A stretch of 64,000 nt of DNA from a virus. Position numbers and translations under genes: made by a program. Positions 2,865-49,373 of the stretch are shown one piece after another; within the stretch, counting starts at the first letter, position 1; every line of letters starts with the position of its first letter. Under the pieces are notes generated by a model. It saw only the letters and a program-made list of their open reading frames with translations, had not been told where the DNA came from and made no database searches. Location: the IMG/VR virus record IMGVR_UViG_3300028581_000013; one strand, given 5' to 3'.

Positions 2865-3749
2865 ATGAGTTTTGCTAATCTCAAACGCCAATCTGGCAAC
2901 CTCGACAAACTATCTAAAGCAATCGAGGCTCTCAATACTTCAACCGAAGGCTCTGATAAACCTGATAATTTTTGGAAATGTGAAGTGGACAAAGCTGGCA
3001 ACGGCATGGCTACGATTCGCTTTCTGCCTGCTTCTGCAGCGGATGGTGAAGATGGTTTACCATGGGTCAAAATCTTCTCACATGGATTTCAAGGTCCAGG
3101 TGGATGGTTGATTGATAATTGCTTGACAACCAAAGACCAAAAATGTCCAGTTTGTGAACACAATTCTGCATTATGGAATTCTGGTATAGAAGCGAATAAA
3201 GACATTGTTCGCAAACAGAAACGTAAACTAAATTACATTGCAAACGTTTATATTGTATCCGACCCAAAACATCCTGAAAATGAAGGTCAGGTCAAATTGT
3301 TTAAGTTTGGTAAAAAGATTTTTGATAAGATTACTGAGGCCATGAATCCTCAATTTGAAGATGAAACACCAATCAATCCATTTGATTTATGGAAAGGTGC
3401 TAACTTTAAATTAAAAATTCGTAAAGTTGAAGGTTATCAGAACTATGACAAATCTGAATTCGAATCACCATCTGCATTATTGAGTGATGATGAAGAATTG
3501 GAAAAGATTTGGAAGTCTGAATACTCTTTGACCGAAATGATTGCTGATAAAGAATTCAAATCATACGATACTTTAAAACAACGCCTTGATAAAGTTCTAG
3601 GTCTCAATGGTGAAGCACCAAAGACAACTGTAGAACAAGTGAAAGCTGCTAATGTTGGTAAGAAAACAGTAGCAGAAGATTCACCTTTCAAGGATGATTT
3701 AGAAGATGATGATATGGCTTATTTCAGTAAGCTTGCTGAAGAAAATTAA
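2865..3749 (+). CDS. gp32: single-stranded DNA-binding protein, T4 gp32-like
   Basis: DKAGNG.A.IRFLP, HGFQGPGGW.IDNCLTT...KCPVCE zinc site, FDLWKGANFKLKI, acidic tail. Confidence 0.97.
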   Translation: MSFANLKRQSGNLDKLSKAIEALNTSTEGSDKPDNFWKCEVDKAGNGMATIRFLPASAADGEDGLPWVKIFSHGFQGPGGWLIDNCLTTKDQKCPVCEHNSALWNSGIEANKDIVRKQKRKLNYIANVYIVSDPKHPENEGQVKLFKFGKKIFDKITEAMNPQFEDETPINPFDLWKGANFKLKIRKVEGYQNYDKSEFESPSALLSDDEELEKIWKSEYSLTEMIADKEFKSYDTLKQRLDKVLGLNGEAPKTTVEQVKAANVGKKTVAEDSPFKDDLEDDDMAYFSKLAEEN

Positions 3750-3937: not shown

Positions 3938-3972
3938 AAAAGAAACCCCGCTTAGGCGGGGTTTTTTATTTT
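3938..3972. terminator. bidirectional intrinsic terminator
   Basis: AAACCCCGC-TTAG-GCGGGGTTT with A-rich left flank and T-tract right flank, between convergent operons. Confidence 0.9.
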
Positions 3973-5935
3973 ATACTGGTCGTTTGTTTTGTCGTTGAAC
4001 TCGTAACAAAGTTGGATCATCAATTCTAGGTGAAACTGAACCATCAATAGCAACACCACCACCGCCACCAGAATTATTTCCAATCGATTGTGAATTATCG
4101 ATAATAGTTGTATTCATTGCAGGAGCGGCCGCCATTTTAATTTCAGCATTCTTACTCATAGTTGATTCTAACTGTGAATCGGTTCTACCACCAGAAGATA
4201 CAGGTGTTACCTTTGGTGCTGGTGGTGTGGCTGCAGGTGATGCTGATGATGGTGTGGCTGCAGGCATTGGTTGATTTGTATTTGAACCTTTGACTGTTGG
4301 TGTTTCTGTCGTTGCTTCCACAGGTTTATTGTTTTCTTCAGGTGTAGTGGTAACAACAGGTTCAACTTCTCCACTAGAATTAGAAATGTGTTCAAATAAC
4401 TTTTCACTAATTGCTTTACCTGCCTTTTTACCGCCAACATAACCTAATGCGGCGCCCGTTGCACCGCCTAAGAAGGCACCAATTGGTCCACCAACTGAAC
4501 CAATAGTTGCACCGATAGTAGCACCCATTGATGTACCAGCACCAGCGGCAATTATTTGAGCAGCACTAGAGACCATAACTTCTCTTAGTTGTTTATCATC
4601 TATCTTACCTTCTTCTCTATCTGCTATAGCCTGTTTCATTGTTTCCATCATTTCAAATGCACCAGCAATACCACCAATAAAAGGCAATTTAGTAAAATAT
4701 TTTAGAACACCTTTAGCACCTTTTAATACTTTAGACATCTTTGTTGCTTTAGGTTTTTCTTCAACCTTTTCTACTTTCGTAGCTTTCTTTTCTTCTTCGT
4801 ATTTCTCTTTACCTTTTTTGGTTGCCTTCTCAGCAGTCTTATTGGGTTTTTCTCCTGTTTTCTTTTCACCTTCTGCTGGTTTTTCTCCAGGTTTTTGTTC
4901 TGCTGGCTTTGGTTCAGCTGGCTTAGGTTCTGCTGGTTTAGGCTCAGCAGTTCCTGGTTTTGGTTCTGACGGAATAGTTGGAGTTTTAATGCCTCTTAAT
5001 CTATCTAAAAGGCTTTTTAATCCTAATACTCCTCCAATTTCACCAATTAAGGTCATTAAAGGTCCAATTACACTCCACAATCCACTCCATATGCTGGATA
5101 TAACTCCAAGCAACATATTTTTTGCAGTTTCAATTAACCCTTTGATGAAATCGAATAGGCCACCACTTTCTTCTTTTTTTGCTTCAGTTTTTACTACAGC
5201 AAAAGATCCTAAAGATTTTATCGCATTAATCAATTCTTTGTTACGTTTTTCTTTTTCTTTTTCACGTATTTTCTTAAAACTTTTTTCTATTTGATATCTT
5301 TTTAAAGAATTAATTTGTTCGGCTTTAATTAAATTATACATTCTTGCTAATATAGTAGCAATACCGTCACCTTTTTTCATAGATTGTGTATTGCCTTCTG
5401 AAATGGCAGAATACAAACCTACATCGGATTTGTTTAATTTTTCATTGATATATGCTGGCTTTGGTTTGGTTTCTTTTGCTTTCTTGTCGCCAGCAAAATA
5501 ACTAATATCTTCTTTACTTCTTCCAGTCATTCGACCTAATAAAGCAGAGCCTAATTTTCCAGTTAATATCTTTGCAATGTTTAACGGATCAAATTTTTCT
5601 TTTAGACCGGTTGAACGTGCTTGCATTTTTTCTGAAATGCCTGATTTGATGGAAGTTAATACACCTTTATCTTCTACCAATTTTTCTGTAATCAAATCTT
5701 TTAATGATTTCTTTCTAATCTGTGATGCCTGTTTATACGACATTTTCTTTTCTGTTGTGTCCGTAATAGAAGCTTCATCTTGTTTTTTTGGTTTACCTAA
5801 TTTACCCATTTCTTCTTTTGTAGCCGCACGAATATAACTGCCGGTTTCAGCTAAAAGAAACCAATGGCCTTTCTTATTAAAGGCGTTAGGGTTCCATGAG
5901 AAAGTATCTTGACCTAATGTTTTTATTATAACCAT
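3971..5935 (-). CDS. putative tape-measure/baseplate-hub (gp29-like) protein, paralog 2
   Basis: Downstream of gp26/gp51; helical Lys-rich, GA-rich hydrophobic stretch (GAGTSMGATIGATIGSVGGPIGAFLGG), PAEPK repeats. Confidence 0.55.
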   Translation of the reverse strand: MVIIKTLGQDTFSWNPNAFNKKGHWFLLAETGSYIRAATKEEMGKLGKPKKQDEASITDTTEKKMSYKQASQIRKKSLKDLITEKLVEDKGVLTSIKSGISEKMQARSTGLKEKFDPLNIAKILTGKLGSALLGRMTGRSKEDISYFAGDKKAKETKPKPAYINEKLNKSDVGLYSAISEGNTQSMKKGDGIATILARMYNLIKAEQINSLKRYQIEKSFKKIREKEKEKRNKELINAIKSLGSFAVVKTEAKKEESGGLFDFIKGLIETAKNMLLGVISSIWSGLWSVIGPLMTLIGEIGGVLGLKSLLDRLRGIKTPTIPSEPKPGTAEPKPAEPKPAEPKPAEQKPGEKPAEGEKKTGEKPNKTAEKATKKGKEKYEEEKKATKVEKVEEKPKATKMSKVLKGAKGVLKYFTKLPFIGGIAGAFEMMETMKQAIADREEGKIDDKQLREVMVSSAAQIIAAGAGTSMGATIGATIGSVGGPIGAFLGGATGAALGYVGGKKAGKAISEKLFEHISNSSGEVEPVVTTTPEENNKPVEATTETPTVKGSNTNQPMPAATPSSASPAATPPAPKVTPVSSGGRTDSQLESTMSKNAEIKMAAAPAMNTTIIDNSQSIGNNSGGGGGVAIDGSVSPRIDDPTLLRVQRQNKRPV

Positions 5936-5938
5936 TTT

Positions 5939-7642
5939 TTATATTGTTGTTTCTAAAACTGGATAATCGTCAATCTGTGCTGTACTTATAATTTGTCTGG
6001 ATTGACCACCACCAGCATTAATGATTGTTTTGGTATTGTTTACTGCTATATTTGTTACAGGTACTTGTTCTTTTAATTCTTGATTTTGTTTCGACATAGC
6101 ATATACAGCCTCACCAGAAGGTGAACTGGTGAAGGCTTCAACTTTGGCCATTTGTTCAGCACCAAACCCTCTTGTTAAATCTACACTGGCACCAACGATT
6201 GCTTTAGTTATTTCGTTATTCGCTTCTGATTGGCTCTTAAATGAATTTACTCTACTACCTAATTTATTTTTAACAAAAGCTGCAACAATTTTTGGTGCCA
6301 ATACTGAATCATTTACTAAGTCTGGATTGGAAACTAAATCGGCACCAATTTGTTTACCAATTCTGTTATAGTTATCTTTTCCTGTCAATTGAATCAGACC
6401 ACGGCCACGATATTTAAATCCATCACCTGGTTCTTTATTACCTAACTCTTGACCTTTGGCAGTCTGATAACCGTAAACTGTTTCAAAAAATTTAGAATCA
6501 TCTTTTTTAATTTCATTTAGTTGGTCATCTGTAAGACCTGCAACTCTACTGCCAAATATTTTACGGATTCTATCGTTTGAAGTATTGGCATAACCAGTTT
6601 CATATTTTGCAGTAAATCCTGATTCTTTACCAACATTACCTAAAATAGCTTTTTGTGCATACTCATTTGTTATACCAACTTCAGCCAAAGCCGATCCTAT
6701 ACCAGCGACCACTGCGGCAGTACCACCAATGGCCGCCGCACCTCCTACAGAAGGTGTTGGAATTTTAGTTGCTTTGGCAGCTTCAACCACACCAGCGACT
6801 GGCTTATCTATTTCTTTTGTTATTTTTGGTACAGTCTTTGTTGGTTGTATAATTTTTTCTGCTTTACTAACAACCGTGGCCACACCTGGAATATCTTTGG
6901 CTTTAGTAACGGCTTTACTAACAACAGTAGTTACTACTGGTGCGGCTGCAGAGGTGGTTGCAACAGTAGGTGATGTAACTGTGGATGCAGGTGTTTCTGG
7001 TTTCTTTGATTCTTCAGGTTTTTTTGTAGGCGGCTCTTCAATTTTTAAATCTTTTTTGACTTTTTCAATATCCGTTTTTGCTGGTTTTTTATCTTTTAAT
7101 TTTTTAATTTCATTAATTAAATTTTCATGCCGTTTGGCATCTTCTGCTTGAACTTCTTCTTCAAAATTATAGTCTAACTCACGATTTAAATTTTCTTTTT
7201 CATAAAAGGTTTTCATGACATTAACCAAACGAGCGGCTACAGTAGCCACATTATCACCTTTTTGTAATGAACCTCTTTGACCTTCTCTAATTTTACTATA
7301 AAAGGCAGTTTCTACATTGCCAACTTTAGTTTCTTGTGGTTGTGTAAAAGAATAAGGTTTCTCACCTTTTTTTCTATTTTTATTGAAGAAGTATTGCATA
7401 TCTTCAGGTTTTCTACCTGTTATCTTACCTAAGAAAGCCATACCAAGATTACCCGTTAATATCTTTGCAATGTTTAACGGATCAAATTTTTCTTTTAAAC
7501 CTGTAGTTTTTGCTTTGAATGATTCAGATACGCCTCCACCAATGGATTGACCAAATCCTTGGCCAGCGACTAATCTATCGGTAATAGTACCTAAGACTCC
7601 TCGTTTTCTGGTTGTCGCTGCTTGTTCGTATTTGCTTATCAT
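5939..7642 (-). CDS. putative tape-measure/hub protein, paralog 1, with GH19 (chitinase/endolysin-like) domain
   Basis: GNVGKES, LGNKEPGDGFKYRGRGLIQLTGKDNY, DLVSNPDLV = GH19 motifs; N-terminus paralogous to 3971-5935. Confidence 0.75.
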   Translation of the reverse strand: MISKYEQAATTRKRGVLGTITDRLVAGQGFGQSIGGGVSESFKAKTTGLKEKFDPLNIAKILTGNLGMAFLGKITGRKPEDMQYFFNKNRKKGEKPYSFTQPQETKVGNVETAFYSKIREGQRGSLQKGDNVATVAARLVNVMKTFYEKENLNRELDYNFEEEVQAEDAKRHENLINEIKKLKDKKPAKTDIEKVKKDLKIEEPPTKKPEESKKPETPASTVTSPTVATTSAAAPVVTTVVSKAVTKAKDIPGVATVVSKAEKIIQPTKTVPKITKEIDKPVAGVVEAAKATKIPTPSVGGAAAIGGTAAVVAGIGSALAEVGITNEYAQKAILGNVGKESGFTAKYETGYANTSNDRIRKIFGSRVAGLTDDQLNEIKKDDSKFFETVYGYQTAKGQELGNKEPGDGFKYRGRGLIQLTGKDNYNRIGKQIGADLVSNPDLVNDSVLAPKIVAAFVKNKLGSRVNSFKSQSEANNEITKAIVGASVDLTRGFGAEQMAKVEAFTSSPSGEAVYAMSKQNQELKEQVPVTNIAVNNTKTIINAGGGQSRQIISTAQIDDYPVLETTI

Positions 7643-7833
7643 TTACCTTGTCTTTGCTTTATCTTTTCGTTTTCTTCTTCAATGAATTGTATAAGCATAT
7701 TAACGTAAATATCACGTTCCCAAGGTATCATATTTTCAAGTTCAGTCAAACTATACTTGTGATGTTGCATCAAGGAAAAGTTTGTTTTATAATAATTTCT
7801 TAAATTGTCATGACGAAATGTTAACCGAAAAAA
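7639..7833 (-). CDS. gp51: gp51-like baseplate hub assembly protein; possibly expressed as a -1 frameshift extension of gp26
   Basis: NYYKTNFSLMQHHKYSLTELENMIPWERDIYV; ATG at 7770 lacks an SD; frame is open back through the slippery site at 7833-7827. Confidence 0.75.
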   Translation of the reverse strand, partial: FFRLTFRHDNLRNYYKTNFSLMQHHKYSLTELENMIPWERDIYVNMLIQFIEEENEKIKQRQGK

Positions 7834-8546
7834 TTGTCTAACCCTTCCACCTCTATCGTGTGGTTGTATCCACACTTACCACAAGTAGTATTAATAACCT
7901 TATTCATTGTTGGTAGGTTATTAAAAAAGTTTTCAATCTTTGCAAATTGATCTTGATTTAAAGACTCAACAAATTCTATCAATTCTGCTGGATCAGTTTC
8001 TTTTGAATAATAATATTGTTCACCATCAAAAATATATTCTATACTCTCAACAATCATTTGAAATGCCATGTCTGTGGCACTACTAAACTTTGTTGCTCTT
8101 TCTAACATAGAAAATTCTGGATACTTTAACTTAATGGCAATTATGTCGGTTAATTGAACAATATCTTTAGCATCTTCTTTAAATTCAACTTTGATGTCAA
8201 GAAGATTAACAGATGTGTCCATCAAATTACCACAAGGTTTGTCATTAACTTCATTTTCACAACGATATTTGGTTTCAATTACTTCACCAACCGAACGTGC
8301 TCTCAAATTAATAAAGTAAAATTCAACATCAATAATAGGTAATGAATCAATGTCAACATTGGGTGTCAAAGTACAATTGTGTAAAACTTGCCTGATGTTT
8401 TTTTCAATTGTTTCTTTATCATCTGACTCCATTGCCATCATTAAGTTTCTTTGTTCTTTTACAAGAAACGGCCTAAATCGAATATGTTTCTTCGATAAAG
8501 GTAAATCTATTTCATATACTGGTGCATCAATTTTTGGTAAAGCCAT
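7821..8546 (-). CDS. gp26: baseplate hub assembly protein, T4 gp26-like
   Basis: MALPKI..P.YE..LP, FRPFLVKEQ, LRARSVGE, CxxC near the C-terminus, ends EGLDNFFG. Confidence 0.9.
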   Translation of the reverse strand: MALPKIDAPVYEIDLPLSKKHIRFRPFLVKEQRNLMMAMESDDKETIEKNIRQVLHNCTLTPNVDIDSLPIIDVEFYFINLRARSVGEVIETKYRCENEVNDKPCGNLMDTSVNLLDIKVEFKEDAKDIVQLTDIIAIKLKYPEFSMLERATKFSSATDMAFQMIVESIEYIFDGEQYYYSKETDPAELIEFVESLNQDQFAKIENFFNNLPTMNKVINTTCGKCGYNHTIEVEGLDNFFG

Positions 8547-8572
8547 TTTATTATCACTCCTCTAAAAAAATA

Positions 8573-9457
8573 TTAATAACCATCCCATTCAGAATATTGA
8601 AATGGTCCAGTTTCTTCATAATAATCTTGGCCAGATTCATATTCTAAAGGATATGGTGCTTCTTCCGATACATAATCGTCCGTTCCACCAAACCATGATG
8701 ATCCTGAATCATCATAACCATCATAACCGCTTCGACCGGTGTTGTCATTTCCAATTGTTGTAAATGGATTACTTAAATCTGCTTCATCACCAAATGTGCC
8801 AAGTGAACCAATGCCACCCAAAGCAGCAGTGATTCTTGATATAACACTTAACAATAAAGAAGTGCCTAGTGCTTGTACTGAATTATTCATCCAGTAAGAA
8901 TAGGCAAATACTACTGTTAATTTGTGGTGACCATCAGCAGACCAATCTAAGTCTAATTGATTGACAGAAATTGGATAAGCATCAATCAATGTTACAGAAT
9001 AACTTTTATCATTTTCTACATCATATTGATTTATTGTAATATTTGAAACATAATCTGTTTTATATGTAAAATTAAAAGAATACGTTGGATTTATAAATTC
9101 TTGCCATGTATCAAAGAATATTCTTTCATTCATATCATCACTAACAATAAAAGTTAATGTTGTATCATTGTATGTTGGCTGATACGGAAACTTTTCAACA
9201 GGATTTGATCCTATTTTTCTGTCTGCTGTAGCAAATGTTCTGCTAGGCAGTTCTGCATTCTCACAACGCATCTTTAATATTCTTGACATACCTCTAAAAG
9301 GTATCAATGTAATGGGTACAGGTATTTCTACATCAAATTTATTAGGTCTTGCCACATCGGTGACAAAGCTCGATTTAAAGTCACTGATGCTACCGCTGGT
9401 ACCTGGTTCGTTACCAAAAAGGCCGATATTACCAAATAGGTTATCGAAAATGGCCAT
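8573..9457 (-). CDS. gp54: tail tube initiator / tube-like protein (gp54/gp19 family)
   Basis: ARPNKFDV, CENAELP, FFDTWQ, LIDAYPISV..L.W, LTVVFAY; acidic C-terminal extension. Confidence 0.75.
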   Translation of the reverse strand: MAIFDNLFGNIGLFGNEPGTSGSISDFKSSFVTDVARPNKFDVEIPVPITLIPFRGMSRILKMRCENAELPSRTFATADRKIGSNPVEKFPYQPTYNDTTLTFIVSDDMNERIFFDTWQEFINPTYSFNFTYKTDYVSNITINQYDVENDKSYSVTLIDAYPISVNQLDLDWSADGHHKLTVVFAYSYWMNNSVQALGTSLLLSVISRITAALGGIGSLGTFGDEADLSNPFTTIGNDNTGRSGYDGYDDSGSSWFGGTDDYVSEEAPYPLEYESGQDYYEETGPFQYSEWDGY

Positions 9458-47505: not shown

Positions 47506-49373
47506 TGGCAATTACAACAGCAAGCCAATCTCAGATAGGACAAGAAACAGCCAAGAATAGTCAGATTGTTACAACATCTGTCAGATTGGTAAATTCTGGT
47601 GCGTCTACAGGTCCTTCTATTTCATCTATTGTTGTAACTGATAGTGGTTATAATACTTTAGATGATACGGCTGCTGCAATCAGCAATTCATATATTCGTA
47701 TTCTTGGTAGTAATTTCACTTCAACAGCGAATGTGTTTCTTAATGGTACGATGATACCAACAGCCAATGTTACATTTGTAAATTCATCAGAATTGAGAGC
47801 TCAATTACCTGTTTCAAACACAGGAAACTATGCAGTATCGGTTTACAATTCAAATTCATCAGGTGCTTTATACTCTAGTTCATTTGTTATTTCAACCATG
47901 CCACAATGGTTAACATCAACAACTTTAGCTAATGTAACATCTAATATTGCATTTTCTAATACATTATCCGCAACATCAGATTCATCAGTTACATACTCGA
48001 ATACCACAATACTACCAACAGGCTTTAATTTATTGTCCAATGGATATTATTATGGTACCATAACATCAGCTAATACTTATTCATTTGGTGTTAAAGCTAC
48101 AGATGTTGAAAATCAAGATTCTACCAGAACATTTAATTTAACTGTCAGTGCTTTTTTACCTGTGCCGACATCGATTGACTATTTGTTAATAGCAGGTGGT
48201 GGTGCAGGCGGAGGTTCTGGAACTGGTGGTACAGTTGATGGTGCCGGTGGTGGCGCTGGCGGTTGGTTAGAAGGAACAATAACAGGAAGTGGATTGGCTT
48301 ATACTGTTACGATAGGTGCTGGTGGTGCTTCAGGTTCACAAAGAGGTGACAATTCGACTTTAGCTAATTCTTCTATAACACGACTCACTTATGGTGGAGG
48401 TATGGGTGGCGGTGCAGGATCATCACAACCTTATTCTTATAATGGCCAAGATGGAGGTTCAGGTGGTGGCGGAGGAATACACAGCGGCGTAACAAATGTA
48501 GGAAATTCCATACAAACAAGTAATAATGGCGGAACTGGATATGGAAATGCTGGAGGCGCAAACCAAACCGGAGCTCCATATACTGGAGGTGGTGGTGGTG
48601 GAGCTGGAGCAGTAGGTGTTTCTGGAACTAGCGGAGGTGCTGGCGGTGCTGGAAAACAATGGTTAGATGGAACTTATTATGCTGGTGGTGGAGGTACAGG
48701 ATCTAACAGCTATGGAGCCGTTAACGGTCTTGGTGGCACCGGTGGTGGTGGCACAGGAGGCACTAGTGCTGGTTCAACAAATACTGGAGGAGGCGGTGGT
48801 GGTAGAATGTTTGCCGGTGGATCTGGTGTTTGTATATTCAGGTATCCTGATTCATTTGCACTTGCAACTTCAACAACTGGATCACCAACAGTAACAACTT
48901 CTGGTGGATACAGATATTATAAATTTACTTCTTCTGGAGCAATTACGTTTTTGCAATCATATAGATATTTTAGAGTAACATTAAATTCAGTAAATGGTGG
49001 CGGCTCGCAAGCTCAATTAACAGAATTATCATTTAGAGATAGTGCTGGAAATTATATCACACAAACATTATCTTCTCCTGTAGCTCCTAGTGCTGGATCA
49101 TTAACAAATCTGAATAATCAAAATGCTACAGCGCTGGACGATACTAATATGAATCCTCTGCCATTTGTAGTTGATTACGATATGGGATCTGAAAAATATG
49201 TAGGTACTGATGTAAAATTTTTACGAATAGGTAGTTCAGATGATTCTACCCGATATGTAAGTAATATAACAGTTAGTGCAAGTAATGATAATTTGAATTT
49301 TACAGAAATAATTAGTGGTACTCCGCCTAGTTATGCTGGTATAAGAGTGCTACAAAATTGGGCAATAGCTTAA
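47505..49373 (+). CDS. IPT/Ig stalk plus glycine-rich domain plus C-terminal discoidin-like domain (putative adhesin)
   Basis: DSGYNTLDDTAA stalk shared with the RCC1 proteins; YLLIAGGGAGG...YYAGGGG...GGSGVCIFRYP; YRYFRV. Confidence 0.72.
   Translation: MAITTASQSQIGQETAKNSQIVTTSVRLVNSGASTGPSISSIVVTDSGYNTLDDTAAAISNSYIRILGSNFTSTANVFLNGTMIPTANVTFVNSSELRAQLPVSNTGNYAVSVYNSNSSGALYSSSFVISTMPQWLTSTTLANVTSNIAFSNTLSATSDSSVTYSNTTILPTGFNLLSNGYYYGTITSANTYSFGVKATDVENQDSTRTFNLTVSAFLPVPTSIDYLLIAGGGAGGGSGTGGTVDGAGGGAGGWLEGTITGSGLAYTVTIGAGGASGSQRGDNSTLANSSITRLTYGGGMGGGAGSSQPYSYNGQDGGSGGGGGIHSGVTNVGNSIQTSNNGGTGYGNAGGANQTGAPYTGGGGGGAGAVGVSGTSGGAGGAGKQWLDGTYYAGGGGTGSNSYGAVNGLGGTGGGGTGGTSAGSTNTGGGGGGRMFAGGSGVCIFRYPDSFALATSTTGSPTVTTSGGYRYYKFTSSGAITFLQSYRYFRVTLNSVNGGGSQAQLTELSFRDSAGNYITQTLSSPVAPSAGSLTNLNNQNATALDDTNMNPLPFVVDYDMGSEKYVGTDVKFLRIGSSDDSTRYVSNITVSASNDNLNFTEIISGTPPSYAGIRVLQNWAIA

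What the first reader, a model, noticed from the sequence alone, without database searches (positions are those of the whole stretch)
7639..8546. Candidate programmed -1 frameshift fusing gp26 to gp51, in the lambda G/GT tail-chaperone position
Seen: on the - strand gp26 ends GAC AAT TTT TTC GGT TAA, which holds a canonical X XXY YYZ slippery heptamer, T TTT TTC (7833-7827), one codon before the stop. The -1 frame reads FF-RLTFRHDNLRNYYKTNFSL-MQHHKYSLTELENMIPWER... straight into the gp51-like ORF. The internal ATG at 7770 has no SD, and the residues before it look like real protein. The predicted products are 241 aa and about 302 aa. The gene order is tube-like, gp26/gp51, tape-measure-like. 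Established: lambda G/GT and P2 E/E' chaperones frameshift between the tube and tape-measure genes. Inference: gp26/gp51 here is the T4-like equivalent; I do not know this to be established for T4-like phages.
Basis: partly seen in the sequence, partly recalled or inferred. Interest (0 to 1): 0.88.

Follow-up and report, generated by a model that had tools for sequence, protein, structure and literature searches.

The report
Frameshift in T4-like tail chaperone gene
One tail-assembly gene of this uncultured T4-like phage very probably makes a 241-residue and a 302-residue protein, because some ribosomes slip back one base on a strictly conserved TTTTTTC; phage T4 makes the same pair from two separate genes (26 and 51).

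Summary
The - strand gp26-like gene (8546..7821, Pfam PF12322) ends AAT TTT TTC GGT TAA. The heptamer T TTT TTC (7833-7827) is in phase, and the -1 frame runs 62 more codons to 7639.

The long product is not gp26 joined to a separate gp51. It is one protein colinear with the whole of T4 gp51. T4 gp26 and gp51 are paralogues that correspond to the short and long forms.

- All 249 related loci (155 distinct junctions, four deep clades plus cultured cyanophages, vibriophages, an Aeromonas and a Stenotrophomonas phage) keep NNT TTT TTN in phase, with the extension in the -1 frame.
- The preceding codon changes its amino acid but always ends in T.
- The Met at 7770 is not conserved and has no ribosome-binding site.
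- This clade has no downstream RNA structure. A Shine-Dalgarno-like element lies 10-12 nt upstream.

Frameshifting has not been measured. I found no paper or database record that reports it. This scan has already noted the same feature in at least 86 other genomes.

The parts
7821..8546 (-). Zero-frame CDS, short form (241 aa, 27.9 kDa), gp26-type hub-assembly or tail-assembly chaperone
   Evidence: ORF list. Pfam PF12322 T4_baseplate, E 1.1e-57, 195.6 bits against a cut-off of 24.5. phrog_150. AF2 model with pLDDT 94.9. Residues 1 to about 92 match the TAC fold.
8556..8564 (-). Shine-Dalgarno sequence (TAGAGGAGT) of the gene's real start, 9 nt before the ATG at 8546
   Evidence: Anti-SD duplex of -8.6 kcal/mol.
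7846..7854 (-). Internal Shine-Dalgarno-like AGAGGTGGA, 12 nt 5' of the heptamer; candidate dnaX-type upstream stimulator (inferred)
   Evidence: Duplex of -7.6 kcal/mol. In relatives the Glu codon of the V-E-G-L motif 10 nt upstream is GAG in 41 of 52 sequences, against 8 of 50 for neighbouring Glu codons and 87 of 683 window-wide, which gives GGAGG (Fisher p about 1e-10).
7827..7833 (-). Slippery heptamer T TTT TTC, the site of the -1 tandem slip of two tRNA-Phe
   Evidence: in phase in 249 of 249 loci. Variants TTTTTTC 109, TTTTTTA 26, TTTTTTT 19 and TTTTTTG 1 among 155 distinct junctions.
7821..7823 (-). Zero-frame stop TAA, one sense codon after the heptamer
   Evidence: In relatives the stop lies 0, 1 or 3 codons after the heptamer.
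7639..7827 (-). -1 frame extension (62 codons plus TGA). Base 7827 is read twice. Gives the 302-aa long form, the gp51-type C-terminal domain
   Evidence: phrog_634 'baseplate hub assembly catalyst', E 2e-30 over residues 1-62, and the C-terminal end of the phrog_150 profile. Aligns with RB32 gp51 through the junction. tblastn homology starts at residue 1 in 547 phage records.
7639..7642 (-). ATGA overlap: the stop of the extension and the start of the next gene
   Evidence: ATGA or TAATG overlaps, or gaps of 0-5 nt, occur in most of 142 distinct junctions in relatives.
5939..7642 (-). Tape-measure-like protein 1 (567 aa) with a GH19/lysozyme-like domain; presumed client of the chaperone (inferred from position)
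   Evidence: Shares a 190-aa N-terminal module with the next gene. The module is conserved in relatives.
3971..5935 (-). Tape-measure-like protein 2 (654 aa) with Pro/Lys-rich and Gly-rich hydrophobic regions
8573..9457 (-). Tube-like protein (gp19/gp54 family) directly upstream
   Evidence: phrog_45 'tail tube', E 1.7e-37. A weak match to Pfam Phage_T4_gp19. The syntenic gene in Aeromonas phage phiAS5 is annotated 'baseplate tail tube initiator'.
3940..3967 (.). Bidirectional intrinsic terminator that ends the - strand gene string; no terminator-like site in the 190 bases from the heptamer to the tape-measure-like start

Best explanation
This is a programmed -1 ribosomal frameshift in the single PF12322 (T4 gp26/gp51 family) gene of the phage. 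Most ribosomes read AAT TTT TTC GGT and stop, which gives a 241-aa gp26-type protein. A minority slip back one base while two tRNA-Phe occupy T TTT TTC, then read CGG TTA ACA onwards for 62 more codons, which gives a 302-aa gp51-type protein with the same N-terminal 240 residues. The likely stimulators are a Shine-Dalgarno-like purine tract 10-12 nt upstream, as in dnaX, and the nearby stop codon; both are inferred. This clade has no downstream RNA structure. The shared N-terminal ~90 residues have the tail-assembly-chaperone fold, and the gene lies directly upstream of two tape-measure-like genes. I therefore infer that the pair acts like lambda gpG/gpGT or T4 gp26/gp51: non-structural chaperones, made in a fixed ratio, for building the hub and tape-measure core of the tail. 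What is shown: the anatomy, the conservation, the homology and the fold. What is inferred: that slippage occurs, its efficiency, the stimulators and the binding partners.
For: (1) The signal is invariant. 82 loci of this clade plus cultured phages and 167 loci of three other clades all have NNT TTT TTN in phase, and the extension homologue is in the -1 frame in 167 of 167. That makes 249 loci and 155 distinct junctions. Aeromonas phage phiAS5 has the same arrangement.
(2) Selection acts at the nucleotide level. The codon before TTT TTC is AGT 24, TCT 13, AAT 9, GAT 4, GGT 3 or GCT 1. The amino acid varies and both Ser codon families occur, yet the third base is always T. The Phe-Phe pair is always TTT then TTC in this clade, although TTC is about 21% of Phe codons in the window.
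(3) Entry into the -1 frame is only possible at the heptamer. The -1 frame is closed 0-25 codons upstream, and in 14 distinct junctions a stop directly abuts TTTTTT.
(4) There is no conserved start. The first ATG in the -1 frame lies at codon 20, 4, 33, 3, 34, 14, 19 or 5 in different relatives, and the Met at 7770 is Ile or Val in many. It has no SD.
(5) Extension codons 3-19, which precede that Met, show a third-position variation pattern in the -1 frame: entropy 0.38/0.22/0.94 for codon positions 1/2/3.
(6) Homology runs through the junction. A profile of 78 conceptual long forms aligns with RB32 gp51 residues 103-243 without a break. The window's long form gives a single BLASTP segment, 23-285 against gp51 15-244, E 7e-10. 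T4-type gp26 ends ...GLKEFFEL, matching the short-form end ...GLDNFFG. gp51 is PF12322 plus a phrog_634 C-terminus, and gp26 is PF12322 only.
(7) The genome record held (136 kb, about 82% complete) has only one PF12322 gene.
(8) Among 114 full-length cluster representatives from a search of 1.84 billion proteins, 95 have F-F within their last six residues and most of the remaining 19 end in F-L plus one residue; a lone 192-aa in-frame fused fragment also appears.
(9) TAC fold. The window's own model (pLDDT 94.9) searched against 48,161 PDB chains gives 3fgx Z 7.9 (86 aligned of 96), 3klu Z 7.2, 2ob9 (HK97 TAC) Z 6.9 and 5ir0 (PLE1 TAC) Z 4.7 at ranks 1-4; only 3 chains reach Z of 5 or more. 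A relative's model gives the same result. The literature calls these four proteins TACs (PMC9603447; PMC12987554).
(10) Sullivan et al. 2010 (PMC3037559) reported, without explanation, that cyanophage and vibriophage 'gp51' lacks the first ~200 residues of T4 gp51. The frameshift supplies them.
Against: There is no downstream hairpin or pseudoknot in this clade (RNAalifold energy 0 on 49 distinct sequences; window MFE -0.8 kcal/mol, z = +1), so efficiency may be low. In E. coli, U-rich heptamers are less shifty than A AAA AAG (Atkins 2016). In the window itself the SD-like element is the weaker variant (GAG GTG GAA GGG) and lies 12 nt upstream, not 10. About half of the relatives have an ATG or GTG within five codons of the slip site, in some cases overlapping the gp26 stop, so coupled re-initiation could make a free small protein in those phages. 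The TAC-fold Z scores (6.9-7.9) are in a range that the tool itself calls middling. The case rests on all four TAC structures ranking at the top, not on the Z value alone. The downstream proteins are called tape-measure-like from position, size and composition only.
Confidence: 0.85

Rival explanations
1. There are two separate genes, as GenBank records now annotate them. A small 'gp51' of 40-60 aa would be made by independent initiation, or by termination-reinitiation, at a start codon near or after the gp26 stop (ATG 7770 in the window). No fusion protein would be made.
For: Public records annotate a separate 'gp51 / baseplate hub assembly catalyst' or a hypothetical ORF here. Some relatives have an ATG that overlaps the gp26 stop (TAATG, TGATG) or lies 3-5 codons after the slip site.
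Against: The start position is not conserved, and 9 of 54 distinct sequences have no ATG before codon 33-34, inside the conserved core. ATG 7770 has no SD. The 19 codons before it are conserved as protein, show a -1 frame coding signature and are homologous to an internal part of T4 gp51. This reading cannot explain the invariant in-phase NNT TTT TTN or the T at the third base of a variable codon. A free 43-62-aa peptide would also lack the ~200 residues that T4 gp51 has in front of this domain.
Confidence: 0.07
2. The same long protein is made, but by transcriptional slippage. RNA polymerase would add one U on the T6 run, so a fraction of mRNAs would carry the two frames joined.
For: The site is a homopolymeric T run, T7 in 19 of 155 distinct junctions. 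The product would be identical, so conservation of the run and of the -1 ORF fits this reading as well.
Against: Efficient bacterial transcriptional slippage is described for runs of about 9 A or T (Atkins 2016). Here the run is 6 in most lineages and is never lengthened to 8-9, although that would cost only synonymous or conservative changes. The run always lies in the exact X XXY YYZ codon phase, followed by a nearby zero-frame stop and preceded by an SD-like tract at dnaX spacing. Those features matter for ribosomes, not for RNA polymerase.
Confidence: 0.06
3. There is no recoding. The heptamer would be a by-product of a conserved C-terminal Phe-Phe motif, and the downstream frame would be a decaying or non-functional remnant.
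For: The C-terminal [DSN]-F-F motif is conserved as protein, even in T4 gp26, which has no slippery site.
Against: Amino-acid conservation does not fix the synonymous third bases. The extension is under purifying selection in at least 249 loci and 547 phage records and is part of an essential T4 protein. T4 gp26 encodes its F-F as TTC TTT, which is not slippery, so the motif does not require the heptamer.
Confidence: 0.02

Closest known systems
Lambda gpG/gpGT and the conserved -1 frameshift of tail-assembly-chaperone genes in long-tailed phages (Levin 1993; Xu, Hendrix and Duda 2004, 2013, 2014, as summarised in Atkins et al. 2016, PMC5009743)
   Same: Two nested products come from one gene directly upstream of the tape-measure gene. 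[quoted passage not shown] The signal is conserved across very divergent sequences. The N-terminal domain has the same fold as the solved TACs (HK97 2OB9, 3FGX, 3KLU, 5IR0).
   Different: The protein is about twice as long as classical TACs: the TAC-fold part is only residues 1 to about 92, followed by a ~145-residue second domain that often carries four Cys. The heptamer is T TTT TTC rather than G GGA AAG. There is no sequence similarity to gpG or gpT. The review states that the G-T frameshift is conserved 'except T4'. Binding partners and product ratio are unknown here.
Phage T4 gp26 (208 aa) and gp51 (249 aa), baseplate hub assembly chaperones (Leiman et al. 2010, PMC3004832; Pfam PF12322)
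   Same: The homology is clear. The short form aligns end to end with gp26 and the long form with gp51, including the C-terminal extension. The genomic neighbourhood is also hub, tube-initiator and tape-measure genes.
   Different: T4 and its close relatives encode the two forms as separate, divergently transcribed paralogues without a slippery site. This phage has a single gene and a frameshift signal.
Phage P2 E/E' tail chaperone frameshift (Christie et al. 2002, cited in PMC5009743; the slip site T TTT TTG is recalled from memory, as the paper is not held)
   Same: It is a contractile-tailed phage with a -1 slip on a T-run heptamer near the end of the chaperone gene upstream of the tape-measure gene. 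One relative here uses T TTT TTG.
   Different: The protein family is different and has no PF12322 domain.
E. coli dnaX -1 frameshift with an upstream Shine-Dalgarno stimulator (established knowledge: Larsen et al. 1994; Atkins 2016)
   Same: A purine-rich anti-SD-complementary tract lies 10-12 nt 5' of the heptamer and is enriched against codon bias.
   Different: dnaX also needs a 3' hairpin, and none is present here. The heptamer is A AAA AAG, and the dnaX slip shortens the protein rather than extending it.

Membership tests
Tail assembly chaperone with programmed -1 frameshift (lambda G/GT type) | Short ORF and overlapping -1 ORF located directly upstream of the tape-measure gene and after tube-type genes | tested here: met
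   The - strand gene order is tube-like (9457..8573), gp26-like (8546..7821), extension (7827..7639), then two tape-measure-like genes. 'Tape-measure-like' rests on position, size and composition, not on a family match.
Tail assembly chaperone with programmed -1 frameshift (lambda G/GT type) | [quoted passage not shown] | tested here: met
   T TTT TTC at 7833-7827. In phase in 249 of 249 loci, with allowed variants only.
Tail assembly chaperone with programmed -1 frameshift (lambda G/GT type) | TAC (gpG-like) fold | tested here: met
   Window model residues 1 to about 92: 3fgx Z 7.9 (rmsd 3.5, 86 aligned of 96), 3klu Z 7.2, 2ob9 Z 6.9, 5ir0 Z 4.7, at ranks 1-4 of 48,161 chains. A relative's model gives the same result. 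The Z values are moderate; the strength lies in the ranking and the coverage.
Tail assembly chaperone with programmed -1 frameshift (lambda G/GT type) | Frameshift product actually made, in a fixed low ratio to the short product | not testable with these tools
   Needs expression, mass spectrometry or ribosome profiling.
Tail assembly chaperone with programmed -1 frameshift (lambda G/GT type) | Common part binds the tape-measure protein; the extension binds the tube or another tail subunit; neither is in the virion | not testable with these tools
   Needs pull-downs and virion proteomics of a cultured relative.
T4 gp26/gp51 family (Pfam PF12322 T4_baseplate) | PF12322 domain above the gathering score | tested here: met
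   195.6 bits against a cut-off of 24.5, covering profile positions 3-218 of 219.
T4 gp26/gp51 family (Pfam PF12322 T4_baseplate) | gp51-type C-terminal extension after the PF12322 domain | tested here: met
   Present, but in the -1 frame: phrog_634 E 2e-30. Colinear with RB32 gp51 through the junction.
T4 gp26/gp51 family (Pfam PF12322 T4_baseplate) | Two separate paralogous genes, as in T4 | tested here: not met
   Only one PF12322 locus in the 136-kb record, which is about 82% complete, so a second copy in the missing part is not excluded.
dnaX-type stimulated -1 frameshift | Shine-Dalgarno-like element about 10-14 nt 5' of the heptamer | tested here: inconclusive
   AGAGGTGGA, -7.6 kcal/mol, 12 nt upstream in the window. 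GGAGG enrichment in relatives has p about 1e-10. The host and its anti-SD sequence are unknown, and function is untested.
dnaX-type stimulated -1 frameshift | Stable 3' stem-loop 5-9 nt after the heptamer | tested here: not met
   The consensus fold of 49 distinct sequences is empty (energy 0). The window's MFE is -0.8 kcal/mol, z = +1.

The most novel reading that the evidence does not exclude
The frameshift may set more than the short:long chaperone ratio. The stop of the -1 extension overlaps the start of the first tape-measure-like gene (ATGA at 7642-7639), and that gene has no usable Shine-Dalgarno sequence. The overlap or abutment recurs in most relatives. Translation of the tape-measure-like protein could therefore be coupled mainly to the minority of ribosomes that have slipped. 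One recoding event would then meter both the long chaperone and its low-copy client in about a 1:1 ratio.
Probability: 0.2. Interest if true: 0.75.

Novelty: new member of a known kind. Interest (0 to 1): 0.62.

Why it matters
The tail-chaperone frameshift is described as conserved in long-tailed phages 'except T4' (Atkins et al. 2016). This locus and its 249 relatives indicate that the wider T4-like group does use it. Phage T4 itself looks like the derived case, in which a gene duplication (26 and 51) replaced recoding. That gives a natural example of two routes to the same pair of proteins.

It also explains a published puzzle: cyanophage and vibriophage 'gp51' is only ~20% as long as T4 gp51 (Sullivan et al. 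2010).

It places the poorly understood T4 hub 'catalysts' gp26 and gp51 in the TAC fold family. That predicts their clients (the tape-measure protein and the tube initiator) and makes their role testable.

It also implies that the 547 phage records with a match to the extension, and many more metagenomic contigs, annotate this region as a separate small gene or not at all.

Tried and rejected
- **Downstream RNA stimulator.** RNAalifold on 49 distinct sequences, and single-sequence folds with shuffles, found no structure. The hairpin noted by earlier agents in other genomes is absent from this clade.
- **Complex prediction.** I submitted the short form (alignment A1) with the shared N-terminal module of the tape-measure-like proteins (A2). 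The verdict was 'no answer' (score 0.01). This counts neither for nor against binding.
Transcriptional slippage and expression therefore remain untested.
I could not check whether the metagenomic in-frame long forms P0001, P0003, P0009, P0012 and P0015 are natural fusions or homopolymer assembly errors. I used P0012 only as a foldable stand-in for the long form.
- **PDB sequence search** with the family profile found nothing below E 0.1.
- **Foldseek** against the PDB gave no match at E of 1e-3 or better, although the only rows with probability above 0.3 were the TAC entries.
- **The extension in the long-form model** is low-confidence at residues 239-262 and otherwise a long helix. Its structural matches are generic helices, so no fold is assigned.
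- **Literature.** Nine full-text searches found no report of this frameshift. Xu et al. 2004 and Christie et al. 2002 are not held, so an older mention cannot be excluded.
- **Promoter scans.** Sigma-70-like sites are at chance level. The T4 late-promoter motif TATAAATA is not enriched, with 3 found against 8 expected and none near this gene string.
Full report
**What is in the sequence.** On the - strand a 241-codon ORF (8546..7821) starts behind a strong Shine-Dalgarno sequence: TAGAGGAGT, -8.6 kcal/mol, 9 nt before the ATG. It ends GAC AAT TTT TTC GGT TAA. The heptamer T TTT TTC (7833-7827) is in X XXY YYZ phase, one sense codon before the stop. After a -1 slip the reading continues CGG TTA ACA and so on for 62 codons, to a TGA at 7641-7639. 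This gives a conceptual 302-aa, 35.7-kDa product beside the 27.9-kDa zero-frame product. Within the window this arrangement is unusual. Of 71 stop-to-stop ORFs of at least 100 codons, two have any in-phase X XXY YYZ in their last six codons, and only this one has a -1 extension of 50 or more codons.

**What the proteins are.** The 241-aa protein is a full-length member of Pfam PF12322 (T4_baseplate, E 1e-57) and of phrog_150 'baseplate hub'. The 62-aa extension matches phrog_634 'baseplate hub assembly catalyst' (E 2e-30) over residues 1-62, which includes the 19 residues before the Met at 7770. It also matches the C-terminal end of the phrog_150 profile. A T4-type phage (RB32) gave the key comparison. 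Its gp26 (208 aa) is PF12322 only, while its gp51 (249 aa) is PF12322 (residues 1-201) plus a C-terminus that matches phrog_634. gp26 and gp51 are therefore paralogues, one short and one long. A profile built from 78 conceptual long forms aligns with gp51 residues 103-243 straight through the junction. The window's own long form gives a single BLASTP segment against gp51 (23-285 against 15-244, E 7e-10). gp26 ends ...GLKEFFEL, where the short form ends ...GLDNFFG. In RB32, genes 26 and 51 are divergently transcribed and gp26 encodes its Phe-Phe as TTC TTT, which is not slippery. The 136-kb record that holds the window (about 82% complete) has only one PF12322 gene.

**Conservation.**
- I collected 80 IMG/VR loci of this clade (70-99% identity), two cyanophages, a marine single-cell virus, a Stenotrophomonas phage and a KVP40-like vibriophage.
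- I added 167 loci from three further clades, found with cluster representatives that are 36-45% identical to the search query, the natural in-frame long form P0012.
- All 249 loci (155 distinct junctions) carry NNT TTT TTN in phase: TTTTTTC 109, TTTTTTA 26, TTTTTTT 19, TTTTTTG 1. The zero-frame stop lies 0, 1 or 3 codons later, and a -1 extension of 56-84 codons follows.
- The extension homologue was in the -1 frame in 167 of 167 of the new loci. Aeromonas phage phiAS5 (Straboviridae) has the same arrangement.
- In this clade the codon before TTT TTC codes for Ser, Asn, Asp, Gly or Ala, using AGT, TCT, AAT, GAT, GGT or GCT. The third base is always T, and both Ser codon families occur. This is what tandem slippage requires and what protein-level selection cannot explain.
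- The -1 frame is closed 0-25 codons upstream of the heptamer, and in 14 distinct junctions a stop directly abuts TTTTTT. Ribosomes can therefore enter that frame only at the heptamer or by starting downstream.

**Against a separate small gene.** GenBank records annotate the extension as 'gp51 / baseplate hub assembly catalyst', as a hypothetical protein, or leave it unannotated. None of the records I opened has a joined CDS. Several observations argue against a separate gene:
- The first ATG in the -1 frame lies at codon 20, 4, 33, 3, 34, 14, 19 or 5 in different relatives, and the window's Met is Ile or Val in many.
- ATG 7770 has no Shine-Dalgarno pairing at all.
- The codons between the gp26 stop and that Met vary mainly at third positions of the -1 frame: entropy 0.38/0.22/0.94.
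- tblastn homology to 547 phage records begins at extension residue 1.

Sullivan et al. 2010 noted, without explanation, that cyanophage and vibriophage gp51 lacks the first ~200 residues of T4 gp51. The frameshift supplies exactly those residues.

**Stimulators.** Earlier agents reported a downstream hairpin in other genomes, but this clade has none. The consensus fold of 49 distinct sequences is empty, and the window's +7..+60 segment folds at -0.8 kcal/mol (z = +1). Instead, a purine tract complementary to the anti-SD lies upstream. In the window it is AGAGGTGGA, 12 nt 5' of the heptamer (-7.6 kcal/mol). In relatives it is GGAGG, 10 nt upstream. That GGAGG arises because the Glu codon of a V-E-G-L motif is GAG in 41 of 52 sequences, against 8 of 50 for neighbouring Glu codons and 13% window-wide (p about 1e-10). 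This is the spacing of the dnaX upstream stimulator (established knowledge). Its function here is inferred. The adjacent stop may also contribute.

- An AlphaFold2 model of the window's short form (88-row alignment, pLDDT 94.9) was compared with 48,161 PDB representatives without a Foldseek prefilter. Ranks 1-4 were 3fgx (Z 7.9, 86 of 96 residues aligned), 3klu (Z 7.2), 2ob9, the HK97 tail assembly chaperone (Z 6.9), and 5ir0 (Z 4.7). All align to residues 1 to about 92, and only three chains reach Z of 5 or more.
- A model of a natural in-frame long form (P0012, pLDDT 87) gave the same four entries at ranks 1, 2, 3 and 5.
- The literature describes 2OB9, 3KLU and 3FGX as phage TACs (PMC9603447) and 5IR0 as the TAC of the V. 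cholerae satellite PLE1 (PMC12987554).
- The Z values are moderate, but it is very unlikely that the four solved TACs would top an unbiased list by chance.

The gp26/gp51 family therefore looks like a TAC domain followed by a ~145-residue second domain. The extension is a low-confidence linker followed by helices, with no assignable fold.

**Context.** The - strand gene string is a gp4-like head completion gene, a gp2-like DNA end protector, the tube-like gene, this gene, and then two large proteins that share a 190-aa N-terminal module (42% identity, E 2e-35). One of these has a GH19/lysozyme-like domain; the other has Pro/Lys-rich and Gly-rich regions. A strong terminator ends the string at 3940-3967. 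The extension's stop overlaps the first large gene's start (ATGA). That start has no usable SD, and overlap or abutment recurs in most relatives. This suggests translational coupling to ribosomes that are in the -1 frame; I treat that as speculation.

**Comparison with the literature and with this scan.** Atkins et al. 2016 state that the G-T frameshift is conserved among long-tailed phages 'except T4'. Nine full-text searches found no report of a frameshift in gp26/gp51-type genes. Two key older papers are not held, so an older mention cannot be excluded. This scan has already noted the same feature many times: 97 notes in at least 86 genomes. Their conclusions agree with mine.

**Verdict.** I put the probability that the frameshift is real at about 0.85. 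The chaperone mechanism is well motivated by homology to T4 gp26/gp51, by the fold and by synteny. It remains inferred, and nothing has been measured.

Noticed in passing
window 7639-7642, and 5935-5939: The extension's stop overlaps the start of tape-measure-like gene 1 (ATGA). That start and the start of gene 2 lack usable Shine-Dalgarno sequences. In 142 distinct junctions of relatives, 42 have the ATGA overlap, 20 have a TAATG-type overlap and 27 have a 0-5 nt gap. This suggests translational coupling of the tape-measure-like gene to ribosomes in the -1 frame.
   Followed up: partly
window 5939-7642 and 3971-5935 (- strand): Two consecutive large proteins share a ~190-aa N-terminal module (42% identity, core motif G-L-K-E-K-F-D-P-L-N-I-A-K) and then diverge. 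One carries a GH19/lysozyme-like domain. The other has a PAEPK-type repeat region and a Gly-rich hydrophobic region. Relatives carry one or the other N-terminal variant directly after the extension.
   Followed up: partly
window 7821-8546, protein residues 88-237: The second domain of the gp26-like protein gives several weak structural matches (Z 3.1-3.8, 46-55 residues aligned) to the zinc-finger and C-terminal peptide-binding region of Hsp40/DnaJ proteins (7zhs, 1nlt, 6jzb, 3agz, 3i38, 3lz8). The domain has four Cys (C-x10-C ... C-x2-C) in this phage but not in all relatives.
   Followed up: no
L087 (Salmonella phage Vi01, FQ312032.1 about 47520-48030): In the Ackermannviridae relative, gp26 ends GAA ATT TTC ATT TAA, which is not a canonical heptamer, yet a homologous extension (...MPWHLDLL...) lies unannotated in the -1 frame. 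The slip site there may be a different motif, or the arrangement may work differently.
   Followed up: no
proteins P0001, P0003, P0009, P0012, P0015, P0047 (metagenome singletons): In-frame long forms (280-299 aa; P0047 is a 192-aa fragment) with varied junction sequences occur as single-member clusters on contigs of 1.6 to 216 kb (three of them 39-216 kb). They could be natural fused lineages or homopolymer assembly errors. Their precomputed Pfam list includes PF28602, which is absent from the local Pfam copy.
   Followed up: partly
window 3940-3967: A 12-bp GC-rich bidirectional terminator lies between the convergent gp32-like ssDNA-binding gene (2865-3749, +) and the second tape-measure-like gene.
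   Followed up: no
whole window: The T4 late-promoter motif TATAAATA occurs 3 times, against about 8 expected by chance, and never in front of this late gene string. This phage group may use a different late-promoter consensus.
   Followed up: no
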